Made by a program: the position numbers and the translations under genes | In this document: in pieces, positions 58,192 to 62,706 of the stretch | How positions within the stretch are numbered: position 1 is the stretch's first letter | How the letters are laid out: the number at the start of each line of letters is the position of its first letter | The notes under the pieces: model-generated | Told to the model about the DNA's origin: nothing | Seen by the model: only the letters and a program-made list of their open reading frames with translations | Databases searched by the model: none | Assembly (NCBI GenBank): GCA_001600695.1 | Contig: BCKQ01000002.1 | Coordinates: 1,674,334-1,738,333 of the forward strand | Direction of reading: 5' to 3' | DNA from: Ascoidea asiatica JCM 7603 | Taxonomy: Eukaryota; Fungi; Ascomycota | Length of the DNA: 64,000 nt

Positions 58192-59250
58192 TTATAGTTT
58201 AAAATTATTTACTTTCTTAAAAAGTAAATCAGTTGCTGCATTTGACCATCCAAATCCAGATTGATATCCATATCCACCATGTCCATAATTTGATATTAAA
58301 ATTTTATTTTCTGGTAAAATTTCTTTTTCAATTCTTGGTCCACCATGTCTATAAGGTCTTAAACCTGCTGCAACTCTTTTAATTTCTAAATCTTCAATTT
58401 TATTACCATTTAAATTTTCTTTTAAAATCTTTGGTAATAATTTTATTGTTCTTTTTAAAATATCTTCAGTTTCTTCACCAAATGTATCTCCTGTCCAATT
58501 ATCTTTTTGTATAAATCCTCCTAAAACTAATGAATCATTTGAATATGGTCTTGGAATTATATATGTTGCAGAATTTATACCCCATCTAACACAATTTTCT
58601 TTAATATGTGGTGCTTTAATAACAACAACTTGTCCTCTACCAGGATAAACATTAAAATCTTTAACTAATTCTCTTGCTCCAATACCTGAACAATTAAAAA
58701 CAATTTTAATATCATTATTAAAATATGCTTGAGAAATATGTGTTAATTTTTTTTTAATAAATTTAACATTTTTTGATTTCATATAATTTGTCATTTTTTT
58801 TAAAAAAATTGGACAATTAAAATTCCAAGTTATATAAGATATACCAAATTTAATTTTTGATTCATTTTTTAAATTTAATTCTTCTTTTGATAAAATTTTA
58901 AAATCTTTTAAATAACTTTTAAGTGAATTTAATTTAATTTCATTTGGTTTAAAATCCCAAAATTCAGTCATTGGAAACATATCTAAACCTGAATTTTTTG
59001 ATCCACCTAAAATTTTTTGAATTTTAAATAAATTTAAATATGTAAATTTATCCATTTTTAAAGTTAATGGATCTGAAGGAGAAATTGCACAAAAATTACC
59101 TCCTGCCCATGGTGATGTATAATAAGTTGATTGATCATCAGAAAAATATTCTGCAATAACTGTAATATCTTTAATACCTTTTTCAAGTAATGAAAAAACT
59201 GTATATAAACCAATAATTCCAGCACCTATAACTACAACTTTTTCACCCAT
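58192..59250 (-). CDS. DAO1: D-amino-acid oxidase (peroxisomal; PTS1-like FKL)
   Basis: VIGAGIIG, YTSPWAGGNF, RGQVVV, TYIIPRP, GLRPYR, NYGHGGYGYQ; very like Candida boidinii Dao1 as recalled. Confidence 0.92.
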   Translation of the reverse strand: MGEKVVVIGAGIIGLYTVFSLLEKGIKDITVIAEYFSDDQSTYYTSPWAGGNFCAISPSDPLTLKMDKFTYLNLFKIQKILGGSKNSGLDMFPMTEFWDFKPNEIKLNSLKSYLKDFKILSKEELNLKNESKIKFGISYITWNFNCPIFLKKMTNYMKSKNVKFIKKKLTHISQAYFNNDIKIVFNCSGIGARELVKDFNVYPGRGQVVVIKAPHIKENCVRWGINSATYIIPRPYSNDSLVLGGFIQKDNWTGDTFGEETEDILKRTIKLLPKILKENLNGNKIEDLEIKRVAAGLRPYRHGGPRIEKEILPENKILISNYGHGGYGYQSGFGWSNAATDLLFKKVNNFKL

Positions 59251-60130
59251 TTTATTTCCCTATAATATTATTGTTAAAAGAACCAAATATGAAAGAATCA
59301 AAGAATATTCATTCTTTTTAAATATTAATATAATAATATATCCTCATTATATTTCTGCTGAATGATAAATAAAAAAAAAGAAATTTATTATTGAGGGATA
59401 AATTATTAAAAAAAAAATCGAAAATTTCGACCTATGATTATGAAAATTAATAGAATAACTATAATATCGAACCATTATTTCAGGAATAATATATCCATCA
59501 GTGAATAATATGATTTATTCAGATCCTAGATAAAAGATAAAGACTACTTTATCTATTGATTAATTAAAATGTCTGCTATTCTAATTCCTATTTTAGATTT
59601 TAATCAAAGCGTATCCATTTCCATATTCAGAGATAATCAAAAAATTAAATAATCAAAAAGTGTAACGTTACCCCGGAAGTGTCATGTGACCTCTACACCC
59701 TGAACACCGTTATTTGAATGCTGAAAAGTACAGCTGTTTTTTTTTGATTGGGTATCAGGGTTTAAAACACCAGCCACGAATGGGTCACTGAAAGTTCATT
59801 GAAACACAAAACCAAACATTTTGATTTGAGGAGGCGTTCGAGTTCCGTAATTAAGAAAAAACCCTCAATTTTATTCACTGTATAAAAAAGTCCTAAGCTG
59901 CATAAGACTATTTGCATACCGAGACTCACTTTACTGTACAGTGTTTAGGTACTATTTTACAAGTTCCATGATTTTGGTCTTTGAAATTCAAAAAGAAGGA
60001 ATTTTACAATAAGAAGTTATAGGCTTTTATTCTAGACAAGGAAACAAGAACAAAGAAAAAGAAGCATTAAATAATGTTATTGTAAAATATATTTATATAA
60101 ATTGAATAAAAGAAATATTTGATTTTTTTA

Positions 60131-61240
60131 TTAAAAATCGGATAATTCATGACCAAAATTTAAAGAATTAGATTTTTTATATAAAGTAACTGAAGCCGCA
60201 ACATCCATAATACTCATTCCTACTAATTTACTTAAAATAATTTTTGGATAACCAAAATATTCAATTAAATTTTTATTAATATTATTTGATGAATAAATTT
60301 CACCAATTTCAATTAATTGATTTGGTAAAACTTTAGAAGATATTAATTCACCAGATTCTTTTAAACAAAATTCTTTACTATCAACAATAATTTTATTTAA
60401 TTTTGAATTTTGAATATTATATTTAATTAAATCTTTATCACATTCTAACATATAAGGTTTATATGAACCAATTAAACCAATATATCTTATTGGAGAATTT
60501 TTTTCATAATTTATCATTTTATTTAAAATTATTGGTTTTATTGAAGGTGTACAACCAAATATAAATAAACTTTCATTAATCATTTTAGAAATATTATTAA
60601 AATTATTTATAATATCTAAAATTTCACAATTAAATATAATTTCAATATTATTATTAATTTTATTTAAATCTTTTGATAAATTTATAATAAATTTTTTTGA
60701 ATTATCTAAATTTCTATTAATTATATTAATTTTATTAAAAAAACCAGGATATAATTTTATTAATAAAAAAATATGCCAATAACTTTGTAAACCAACACCA
60801 AAAGAAGTTATAGATCTTAATTCATTATTAATTTTAATATTATATTCAATCATATTATTAAATAATCTTTGAATAATTATTGAATTACTTAAAGCAGTTC
60901 TAAAAGCTGTTAAAACTCTTGCATTTATTAAACAATTTAAATTACCATTAATTGAATCAATTACAAGATTAATACCATTAAAACCATGTTTTGAACCTGT
61001 TAAAATTTTTATACCTAAATTTGTTTTATTTAATTTACTTGGCATAAATAAATATGTACTATCACCAGTTTTTAAATCATTTGGTCTTTTTTCTTCCATT
61101 ATTATACGTTTGGGTATCATTGATTTATCTTTTGAATAATCAATTAATGAATCAATTAAACATTTTTGAAAATCTTTTAAATCTGATTGTGATATAGATT
61201 TAAGATAATCATCAACAAGTTTATCACTAATTACTTTCAT
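60131..61240 (-). CDS. Ornithine cyclodeaminase/mu-crystallin (ketimine reductase) family, YGL159W-like
   Basis: LFMPS, GIKIL, INARVLTAFRTAL, FGVGLQSYWH, IGSYKPYMLE, ESGELI, VGMSIMDV. Likely start MKVISD at 61240; an in-frame ATG at 61309 adds 23 aa. Confidence 0.85.
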   Translation of the reverse strand: MKVISDKLVDDYLKSISQSDLKDFQKCLIDSLIDYSKDKSMIPKRIIMEEKRPNDLKTGDSTYLFMPSKLNKTNLGIKILTGSKHGFNGINLVIDSINGNLNCLINARVLTAFRTALSNSIIIQRLFNNMIEYNIKINNELRSITSFGVGLQSYWHIFLLIKLYPGFFNKINIINRNLDNSKKFIINLSKDLNKINNNIEIIFNCEILDIINNFNNISKMINESLFIFGCTPSIKPIILNKMINYEKNSPIRYIGLIGSYKPYMLECDKDLIKYNIQNSKLNKIIVDSKEFCLKESGELISSKVLPNQLIEIGEIYSSNNINKNLIEYFGYPKIILSKLVGMSIMDVAASVTLYKKSNSLNFGHELSDF

Positions 61241-61587
61241 TATTTTAATAATAAAAAGTAATTGTTTCTTCAGTTGAATATAAATATAATTTATGAATTT
61301 TATATTCATAAATAATTGTAATCTTGTTACAGTTCAGTTACTCTTTGACTTAAATCACCCATTGAAGAAACAAGGTCCGGAAAAAGAAGGTTCATTGGTT
61401 CGAATTAGTCGATCCATCAGACCCACACCACTGGGTTTCTGGAATTGAAGAACTACGAGGCTCGGTGACACTAAAGAGGAAATAACAATTGTATGTGGCG
61501 CATGCACACAAAAATGTGTTTTAAAAGAAGAAGAATAAAGTGAGGTGATTGATTGTATTTAACATGTTTGAATAACTAACTGAGAAA

Positions 61588-62706
61588 TCACCCAAGAGTT
61601 ATGTACTTGGTTAAGTTCTTTGGAATGCATTCCAACAATCCTTTGGATTCTAACCATTTCTTAGAAAAAAGTCTATCTGAATATTTATGAGCAGAATCTG
61701 CTAAGATTGTAACAACATTGGATCCTTCTGGTAATTTTAAAGCAAGTTTTACAGCTCCTACAACATTTAATGCTGATGTACCTCCTATAAACAATCCTTC
61801 ATTATCTAATAATCTATAAAGCATAATAATAGATTCTGAATCTGGAATTTTTAATGCATCATCAATTATTTCAATATCTTGTTTTAAATTATTTGTTATT
61901 CTACCTTGTCCAATACCTTCTGTAAATGATGATCCTGAATTATCTAAAGATTTTCCATTTGATTTAATATATGAATAAATACATGATCCAGGTGGATCTG
62001 CAATATAAATTTTAGTTTTACCATTTGAAATTTCTTTAAGATATCTTGAAATACCTGCAAATGTACCTCCAGTACCTGTTGAACATGTAAATCCATCAAC
62101 TTTACCATTTAATTGTGCCCATATTTCAGGTCCTGTAGTTTCAATATGTGCTTGTCTATTTGATAAATTATCAAATTGATTTGTCCAAACTGAATTTTTT
62201 AAAGATTCTGCATGCCTTTTAGCTTGATGATTATAATTCATTGGATTTGAATATGGTACAACTGGAACTGGATTAACTTCAGCTCCTAATAATTTTAATA
62301 AACTTATTTTTGATGGTGATTGAGTATTTGGCATATAAATTATACATTTATATCCTTTAGATCTACAAACATGTGCTAATCCAATACCTGTATTTCCTGC
62401 AGTTCCTTCAATAATTGTACCTCCATTTTTTATTAATCCTTTTTTCTCAGCATCTTCAATTATAAATTTTGCTGCTCTATCTTTTACTGATCCTCCTGGA
62501 TTCATATATTCTGCTTTTGCATAAATATTTCTACCTAATTCTTTTGAAAGATTTTTTAATCTAATTAATGGAGTATTTCCAATAGCTTCAACAAAATCTT
62601 TTGCAACTAATGGAACAAATGGAGGTCTAATATCTCTATTAGATATAAATCTACGACATATAATTCTTGAAGATTTTTGAAACATAATTGAATTTTTAAT
62701 CATCAT
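61588..62706 (-). CDS. Cysteine synthase (O-acyl-serine sulfhydrylase, Cys11/CysB type) with a mitochondrial-type presequence
   Basis: [20 protein letters not shown] (PLP lysine), [29 protein letters not shown]; no CBS regulatory domains. Confidence 0.92.

What the first reader, a model, noticed from the sequence alone, without database searches (positions are those of the whole stretch)
58192..62706. Candidate metabolic cluster: D-amino-acid oxidase, ketimine-reductase-family enzyme and cysteine synthase
Seen: three consecutive co-oriented amino-acid enzymes. Known chemistry: DAO oxidises D-proline and D-pipecolate (and D-lysine after cyclisation) to the cyclic imines pyrroline-2- and piperideine-2-carboxylate. 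OCD/mu-crystallin members reduce these to L-proline and L-pipecolate, and also reduce sulfur-containing cyclic ketimines derived from cysteine adducts. The fungal YGL159W-like family is, to my knowledge, uncharacterised. Inference: DAO1 and its neighbour form a two-step D-to-L stereoinversion or salvage module, which would give the YGL159W family a function. Cysteine synthase could extend it to sulfur ketimines but may be an incidental neighbour, since the predicted compartments differ.
Basis: partly seen in the sequence, partly recalled or inferred. Interest (0 to 1): 0.7.

Follow-up and report, generated by a model that had tools for sequence, protein, structure and literature searches.

The report
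Three ordinary enzymes, likely chance neighbours
Three intact, widespread yeast enzyme genes sit side by side here but apart in every other yeast checked, so the 'cluster' is likely a chance neighbourhood, although the middle enzyme likely can reduce the oxidase's cyclic imine products to L-proline or L-pipecolate.

Summary
Observation confirmed: three intact minus-strand genes in an Ascoidea-like yeast. They are a D-amino-acid oxidase (63% identical to Candida boidinii DAO1), an OCD/mu-crystallin reductase and a CysB-type cysteine synthase.

The cluster reading is weak. The oxidase and reductase are adjacent in 0 of 15 named yeast genomes and 0 of 11 yeast metagenome loci. The cysteine synthase is next to the reductase in 0 of 12 genomes and lies on another scaffold in the closest relative. 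Co-orientation is trivial: the trio ends a run of eight minus-strand genes.

The reductase family is not uncharacterised. Its closest solved relative, C. parapsilosis CpIM1 (PDB 8H8P), is an NADPH imine reductase that oxidises L- but not D-proline, and the family includes Aspergillus PrnX.

The chemistry is still plausible. In filamentous fungi I found PrnX-like genes beside imine-making enzymes: a 3-hydroxyproline dehydratase, an L-lysine oxidase, a proline racemase-like gene and, once (1 of 80 loci), a distant DAO.

Verdict: probably a species-specific neighbourhood of ordinary genes (0.7). A young selected DAO–reductase pair is not excluded (0.2); a sulfur-ketimine trio is unlikely (0.03). 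The scan had not reported this on other DNA.

The parts
58192..59250 (-). D-amino-acid oxidase, DAO1/IFG3 clade, 352 aa; FAD motif GAGIIG, N52, Y230, R298; C-terminal FKL (non-canonical PTS1)
   Evidence: 73-74% to A. rubescens ODV61923, 63% to C. boidinii DAO1 Q9HGY3
59681..59690 (+). GTCATGTGAC near-palindrome 431 bp upstream of the DAO start; candidate bHLH-type site (class recalled); also upstream of the cation-efflux and Puf genes, absent from the reductase and cysteine synthase promoters
   Evidence: 3 copies in the window, 0.03 expected from shuffles
60131..61240 (-). OCD/mu-crystallin family imine reductase (CpIM1 / YGL159W / PrnX-related), 369 aa from the conserved start (longest ORF runs to 61309); R45, M66, K78, R114, GxGxQS 148-153, N175-R176, Y260, D346
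61588..62706 (-). Cysteine synthase (CysB/'cysteine synthase 1' type), 372 aa; N-terminal extension that reads like a mitochondrial presequence (inferred from sequence, no predictor run)
   Evidence: 84-85% to A. rubescens ODV58274

Best explanation
Three ordinary single genes of yeast amino-acid metabolism lie next to each other in this genome, likely through lineage-specific rearrangement rather than selection for a cluster. Shown: gene identities, intact active sites, and separation of the three in the other yeasts examined. Inferred mechanism of each: the oxidase is likely peroxisomal and would oxidise neutral D-amino acids, giving Pyr2C from D-proline and Pip2C from D-lysine or D-pipecolate. 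The middle enzyme is likely a cytosolic NADPH-dependent Pyr2C/Pip2C reductase that would return these imines, from any source, to L-proline or L-pipecolate. The two can therefore work in series, as they would in any yeast holding both genes, without needing to be neighbours. The cysteine synthase likely serves mitochondrial cysteine synthesis and has no part in this.
For: DAO and reductase adjacent in 0 of 15 named yeast genomes: 12 on different contigs, 3 on one scaffold but 141 (A. rubescens), 416 and 125 accession numbers apart. Cysteine synthase next to the reductase in 0 of 12 genomes, and on another scaffold in A. rubescens. No DAO in 11 of 11 yeast metagenome loci and no cysteine synthase in 80 of 80 loci; yeast neighbours are housekeeping genes. 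The trio lies in a run of eight minus-strand genes. The DAO promoter shares its one enriched motif with unrelated genes. A YGL159W-like reductase is kept in a locus that I read as S. cerevisiae (L010), a species I recall lacks DAO. Reductase function: closest structure 8H8P (E 6e-50 by sequence; TM 0.83-0.88); CpIM1 oxidises L- but not D-proline with NADP+.
Against: One independent fungal locus (L046) has a DAO-clade gene tail-to-tail, about 130 bp from a PrnX-like gene, and four sibling loci lack it. A rough chance estimate is 0.01-0.03. PrnX-like genes recur beside imine-producing enzymes in filamentous fungi. Exact adjacency of two given genes in one yeast genome has a prior near 3e-4, though the scan looks at very many windows. 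The A. rubescens distance rests on accession order, which I could not show to be positional. Only the best-scoring DAO paralogue of each named genome was checked.
Confidence: 0.7

Rival explanations
1. A young, selected two-gene module: DAO1 and the imine reductase were brought together in this lineage and are co-regulated to convert D-proline, D-pipecolate or D-lysine to the L-forms. It would be one more case of PrnX-family genes being recruited next to the enzyme that makes their imine.
For: L046 shows an independent DAO next to a PrnX-like gene, with a different DAO paralogue (31-32% identity) and absent from siblings L041, L043, L044, L077. L017 has a Cys/Thr proline-racemase-family gene (best match human 3-hydroxyproline dehydratase, E 4.7e-68) beside PrnX in a prn cluster; L033 has a Cys/Cys proline-racemase-family gene; L067 has an L-lysine alpha-oxidase homologue (E 1.8e-177) about 5 kb away. 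Azospirillum LhpI is needed for growth on D-proline and D-lysine (PMC3958920).
Against: No conservation in any yeast examined, probably not even in the congener. No transporter or regulator gene beside the pair. No shared enriched promoter motif. The reductase is evolving fast in this lineage (44% to A. rubescens against 74% for DAO and 85% for cysteine synthase), which does not suggest a tightly kept module.
Confidence: 0.2
2. A three-gene cluster for sulfur ketimines: cysteine synthase supplies cysteine or lanthionine-type adducts, the oxidase makes cyclic ketimines and the reductase reduces them.
For: Mammalian mu-crystallin is a ketimine reductase (PMC3958920 discussion); PDB 8H8P is titled thiomorpholine-carboxylate dehydrogenase.
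Against: Cysteine synthase is beside the reductase in 0 of 12 genomes and 0 of 80 loci, and is on another scaffold in A. rubescens. It is a highly conserved standard enzyme (85% to the congener, 70-77% to other yeasts). Its predicted compartment differs. The passages I read on CpIM1 report no sulfur-ketimine assay, so the PDB title appears to be a family label.
Confidence: 0.03
3. The reductase in this lineage is under relaxed selection or has shifted to another imine (for example N-alkyl amino acid formation from keto acids), so it does not act downstream of DAO at all.
For: Long end branch (0.91 against a median of 0.33) and biased composition. Identity to the congener is far below that of other yeast pairs at similar cysteine-synthase distance (44% against 59-69%). 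CpIM1's highest activity is pyruvate plus methylamine, and the passages read report no direct Pyr2C assay.
Against: All 33 invariant columns of a 40-sequence alignment are kept, including the carboxylate-binding and NADPH-binding residues; the model is complete and confident (pLDDT 92.9). The low G+C of the genome can explain part of the drift.
Confidence: 0.07

Closest known systems
CpIM1 of Candida parapsilosis (PDB 8H8P; PMC8446579)
   Same: Closest solved relative by sequence (E 6e-50) and fold (TM 0.83-0.88). Same Arg/Met/Lys/Arg set and the same Tyr at the cyclodeaminase Asp position.
   Different: About 33% identity. CpIM1 was studied as a biocatalyst, and its gene is not beside DAO in the related Candida genomes checked.
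Aspergillus nidulans PrnX in the prn proline-utilisation cluster (PMC5983819)
   Same: Same fungal OCD/mu-crystallin family: sequences named PrnX form part of the Pezizomycotina clade sister to the yeast clade that holds the window's protein. Function described as unknown.
   Different: prnX lies in a conserved, PrnA-regulated cluster with permease, proline oxidase and P5C dehydrogenase. The window has none of these genes.
Azospirillum LhpH/LhpI and Thermococcus LhpI Pyr2C/Pip2C reductases (PMC3958920, PMC4141209)
   Different: Bacterial or archaeal, about 20% identity, clustered with 3-hydroxyproline dehydratase and transporters rather than with DAO.
Candida boidinii DAO1 (UniProt Q9HGY3)
   Same: 63% identical, same clade and active-site motifs.
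   Different: Ends in AKL rather than FKL. I could not read its activity on D-proline in the library.
Mammalian DAO plus CRYM (ketimine reductase) route
   Same: Same two enzyme families and the same two-step chemistry.
   Different: Genes unlinked (recalled); CRYM has Ser where the fungal proteins have Tyr.

Membership tests
Fungal metabolic gene cluster | Physical linkage conserved in more than one lineage | tested here: not met
   DAO-reductase adjacent in 0 of 15 named yeast genomes and 0 of 11 yeast loci; cysteine synthase-reductase in 0 of 12 and 0 of 80. One non-orthologous DAO case in a filamentous fungus (L046).
Fungal metabolic gene cluster | Co-regulation (shared cis sites, co-induction) | tested here: inconclusive
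   No enriched motif shared; two G+C-rich 8-mers shared by DAO and reductase promoters against three by DAO and the cation-efflux gene. No expression data.
Fungal metabolic gene cluster | Pathway transporter or regulator in the cluster | tested here: not met
   Flanks are MRPL37, a cation-efflux transporter, DCP2 and an unassigned 315-aa ORF.
OCD/mu-crystallin Pyr2C/Pip2C (imine) reductases | OCD/mu-crystallin fold | tested here: met
   Model pLDDT 92.9; best matches 8H8P, mouse CRYM and 6T3E.
OCD/mu-crystallin Pyr2C/Pip2C (imine) reductases | GxGxx[A/S] motif and (Arg)-Lys-Arg-Asp carboxylate site | tested here: met
   G148-V-G150-L-Q152-S153; R45, K78, R114, D346, against features given in PMC3958920, PMC4141209 and PMC8446579.
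OCD/mu-crystallin Pyr2C/Pip2C (imine) reductases | NADPH-type Asn-Arg after the Rossmann strand | tested here: met
   N175-R176, aligned to CRYM and CpIM1 NRT.
OCD/mu-crystallin Pyr2C/Pip2C (imine) reductases | Measured NAD(P)H-dependent reduction of Pyr2C or Pip2C | not testable with these tools
   Only the reverse reaction on L-proline is reported for the homologue CpIM1.
Ornithine/lysine cyclodeaminases | Catalytic Asp228 (with Glu56) for cyclisation | tested here: not met
   Tyr260 holds the Asp228 position, as described for CpIM1. The Glu56 position was not mapped.
D-amino-acid oxidase (not D-aspartate oxidase) | FAD motif, Tyr/Arg carboxylate site, closeness to a characterised DAAO | tested here: met
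   GAGIIG at 9, Y230, R298; 63% to Q9HGY3; best PDB match is a DAAO. Several homologues carry automatic 'D-aspartate oxidase' names.
D-amino-acid oxidase (not D-aspartate oxidase) | Asn rather than His at the fungal specificity position | tested here: met
   N52 aligns to Asn in 7CT4 and 1C0I and to His in the D-aspartate oxidase 9VPF. The role of this His is recalled, not read.
D-amino-acid oxidase (not D-aspartate oxidase) | Activity on D-proline or D-lysine | not testable with these tools
   No assay; no paper giving this for the yeast clade was found.
D-amino-acid oxidase (not D-aspartate oxidase) | Peroxisomal PTS1 | tested here: inconclusive
   Ends FKL; among the homologues under 400 aa, 44 end SKL, 23 AKL and 1 FKL. 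FKL was among seven PTS1 tags that all gave peroxisome-type products in S. cerevisiae (PMC4882508).

The most novel reading that the evidence does not exclude
The fungal PrnX/YGL159W family is the missing fungal Pyr2C/Pip2C reductase and is recruited again and again next to whichever enzyme makes its imine (3-hydroxyproline dehydratase, L-lysine oxidase, D-amino-acid oxidase). This locus is a newborn yeast D-to-L proline/pipecolate inversion module of that kind, assembled after the split from A. rubescens. The family function alone I put at about 0.75; that this particular pair is selected is the uncertain part.
Probability: 0.2. Interest if true: 0.55.

Novelty: new member of a known kind. 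Interest (0 to 1): 0.27.

Why it matters
As a cluster it probably does not matter: each gene is a common orthologue, and the oxidase-plus-imine-reductase route is known in bacteria and proposed in mammals. The useful by-product is a testable function for two long-unassigned genes, Aspergillus prnX and yeast YGL159W. Neighbourhoods in filamentous fungi and the CpIM1 data both point to Pyr2C/Pip2C reduction. If the pair here proved co-regulated, it would be a small example of a yeast metabolic cluster caught at birth.

Tried and rejected
No whole genome is held for this window, so paralogues and gene order beyond the window could not be checked. I tried to calibrate whether A. rubescens accession numbers follow gene order by finding its cation-efflux orthologue; the three top hits looked up were not A. 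rubescens, so the 141-accession distance stays uncalibrated. Sequencing runs: no RNA holder listed; not used as evidence. Promoter scans for recalled Put3/PrnA, oleate-response, Cbf1 and Met31 motifs found none in the three promoters. Dropped before counting pairs: C. maltosa (contigs of 3.7 and 13 kb), C. haemuli and C. albicans/africana (genes from different strains). Cyclodeaminase function rejected (Tyr at the Asp228 position). D-aspartate oxidase rejected on identity to Q9HGY3 and N52. Loss of peroxisomal targeting considered because of FKL, but not supported. No complex prediction was run, since no physical binding is claimed. Literature searches: YGL159W (6 papers, 4 listed, none on its function by title); prnX + proline (3); DAO + Pyr2C + D-proline + fung (1); Ascoidea + DAO (1, unrelated passages); hydroxyproline dehydratase + cyclodeaminase + fungi + cluster (3); a search for a statement that S. 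cerevisiae lacks DAO gave 0 and 1 papers without it. Earlier scan notes gave nothing on this DNA.
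Full report
1. What is there. The window is an A+T-rich (about 24% G+C) yeast sequence. Its proteins' best named hits are from Ascoidea rubescens. Three intact minus-strand ORFs fill 58192-62706: a DAO-family oxidase, an OCD/mu-crystallin protein and a cysteine synthase. The middle gene most likely starts at 61240 (369 aa), where its homologues start. 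Upstream lies an unassigned divergent ORF; downstream lie MRPL37, a cation-efflux transporter and DCP2. The common orientation carries no weight: 15 of 20 listed ORFs are on the minus strand and the trio closes a run of eight.

2. The oxidase. It is 73-74% identical to the A. rubescens protein and 63% to C. boidinii DAO1, UniProt Q9HGY3. FAD and carboxylate motifs are intact. Position 52 is Asn as in two DAAO structures, where a fungal D-aspartate oxidase has His (the role of that His is recalled). Many homologues are auto-named D-aspartate oxidase, which I discount for these reasons. It ends in FKL, while most homologues end in SKL or AKL. FKL was one of seven PTS1 tags that all worked in a yeast engineering study (PMC4882508, two passages seen), so peroxisomal location remains the likely reading. 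Activity on D-proline is inferred from the family and was not found in print for this clade.

3. The reductase. Its closest solved relative is PDB 8H8P from C. parapsilosis (E 6e-50). An AlphaFold model (pLDDT 92.9) matches 8H8P best, then mu-crystallin and the Thermococcus Pyr2C reductase. The paper on this C. parapsilosis enzyme, CpIM1 (PMC8446579; first fifth of the text and passages seen; supplements not read), reports NADPH-dependent imine reduction and reductive alkylamination, and NADP+-dependent oxidation of L-proline but not D-proline. I take 8H8P and CpIM1 as the same protein from the matching organism, length and N-terminus. The residues it names (Arg48, Met65, Lys76, Arg118, Tyr in place of the cyclodeaminase Asp) are R45, M66, K78, R114 and Y260 here. 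The GxGxxS motif, the triad Asp (D346) and the NADPH-type N175-R176 described in PMC3958920 and PMC4141209 (passages) are also present. In a 61-row tree the window protein pairs with the A. rubescens protein (100/99) inside a yeast clade that includes the YGL159W-like protein of L010. [quoted passage not shown] So the family has one biochemically characterised member but no assigned physiological role in the papers I could search (most subscription papers are outside the library, and I recall a 2012 JBC paper on the human 3-hydroxyproline dehydratase that may discuss fungal neighbours and that I could not read). The protein is drifting fast in this lineage: 44% identity to the congener, against 59-69% for other yeast pairs at similar cysteine-synthase distance.

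4. The cysteine synthase is a standard, highly conserved enzyme (84-85% to A. rubescens, 70-77% to other yeasts). Its N-terminal extension reads like a mitochondrial presequence (inference).

5. Test of linkage in yeasts. (a) Named genomes, from contig lengths, locus tags and accession numbers: DAO1 and the reductase are adjacent in 0 of 15. Twelve have them on different contigs or chromosomes (for example D. hansenii chromosomes B and E). Three have them on one scaffold, 141 (A. rubescens), 416 (Spathaspora passalidarum) and 125 (Scheffersomyces coipomensis) accessions apart. I assume, but could not verify, that accession order follows gene order, and I saw only the best 120 of 518 DAO hits, so other paralogues are unchecked. 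The cysteine synthase is adjacent to the reductase in 0 of 12; in A. rubescens it is on a 0.30-Mb scaffold and the other two on a 1.13-Mb scaffold. (b) Metagenome loci around reductase homologues (best 80 of 229 confirmed): 11 are yeast loci in 8 groups, 6 groups with at least 7 kb on both sides. None holds a DAO, and none of the 80 holds a cysteine synthase. Yeast neighbours are alkaline phosphatase, MFS transporters, GPI1, HIS5-like and other housekeeping genes. L010 has the gene order I recall for S. cerevisiae RAD54-YIP5-AIM14-YGL159W-RCK1-ARI1; that species, by my recall, has no DAO, so the family does not depend on DAO. (c) Promoters: the only clearly enriched motif found, GTCATGTGAC (3 copies, 0.03 expected), is upstream of DAO, the cation-efflux gene and a Puf gene, not of the reductase or cysteine synthase.

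6. Results against my reading. Among the 69 filamentous-fungal loci, one (L046) has an intron-containing DAO-clade gene ending in AKL, tail-to-tail about 130 bp from the PrnX-like gene. It is a distant paralogue (31-32% to the yeast clade). Four sibling loci run straight from the reductase to ADE6 without it. With 57 informative flanks and an assumed 2-6 DAO genes per 10,000-12,000 genes, chance gives at least one such case with probability 0.01-0.03 (rough, gene numbers assumed). Other loci place PrnX-like genes near further imine sources (Pfam scans of 197 filtered ORF pieces from one representative locus per group). L017 is a prn cluster (aldehyde dehydrogenase, permease, proline dehydrogenase, transcription factor) with a Cys/Thr proline-racemase-family gene, best matched to human 3-hydroxyproline dehydratase, which makes Pyr2C. 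L033 has a Cys/Cys proline-racemase-family gene directly upstream. L067 has an L-lysine alpha-oxidase homologue, a NikD-like oxidase piece, homocitrate synthase and a PQ-loop transporter. That is 4 of 37 filamentous groups against 0 of 8 yeast groups (groups at 80% DNA identity; many have short flanks). Most of the rest sit among housekeeping genes. These neighbourhoods support a Pyr2C/Pip2C reductase role for the family and show that oxidase-reductase pairing does occur in fungi. They keep the selected-pair reading alive at about 0.2.

7. How it most likely works. Shown: identities, intact sites, lack of conserved linkage. Inferred: DAO oxidises D-amino acids in the peroxisome; for D-proline and D-lysine the products are the cyclic imines Pyr2C and Pip2C; the reductase, with no PTS1-like end, reduces them with NADPH in the cytosol to L-proline and L-pipecolate. 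This route is shown in Azospirillum, where the OCD-family LhpI is needed for growth on D-proline and D-lysine (PMC3958920). It needs both genes in the genome, not side by side. The cysteine synthase belongs to cysteine synthesis.

8. Verdict. Real genes and sound chemistry, but the cluster is probably a one-lineage coincidence (0.7). A young two-gene module 0.2; a drifted reductase with another substrate 0.07; a sulfur-ketimine trio 0.03. Novelty: new members of known kinds. Interest 0.27, mostly for the testable function it suggests for prnX and YGL159W.

Noticed in passing
L067:1258-11092 (also L061 in part): Candidate fungal lysine-to-pipecolate/picolinate cluster: PQ-loop transporter, L-lysine alpha-oxidase homologue (E 1.8e-177), NikD-like flavin oxidase (E 6.6e-9 on one exon piece), homocitrate synthase and a PrnX-like reductase within 10 kb.
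   Followed up: partly
L017:575-14409: [quoted passage not shown]
   Followed up: partly
L033:2603-4955 (also L036): Cys/Cys proline-racemase-family gene directly upstream of a PrnX-like gene in a filamentous fungus; a fungal proline racemase or hydroxyproline epimerase candidate.
   Followed up: partly
L046:9992-12312: Three-intron DAO-clade gene ending in AKL, tail-to-tail with a PrnX-like gene and absent from four sibling loci; Leu at the position where DAAO has Asn.
   Followed up: yes
window 26256, 57121, 59681: GTCATGTGAC occurs three times (0.03 expected), each 320-470 bp upstream of a minus-strand gene (Puf protein, cation-efflux transporter, DAO); likely a bHLH factor site, factor not identified.
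   Followed up: partly
window 43036-51573: 8.5-kb stretch with no stop-to-stop frame above 90 aa and no tRNA, upstream of a C2H2 zinc-finger gene; a long regulatory region, RNA gene or centromere-like region is possible.
   Followed up: no
window 18266-20524 against L002 and L006: GPI1 lies 5-7 kb from the reductase in two other yeasts and about 40 kb from it here: a faint trace of older linkage.
   Followed up: no
P0032: A protein labelled 'Asgard group archaeon' clusters at 90% with Candida tropicalis proteins: probably yeast contamination of that assembly.
   Followed up: no
window 63010-63957: Divergent 315-aa Asn/Lys-rich ORF with no Pfam match.
   Followed up: no
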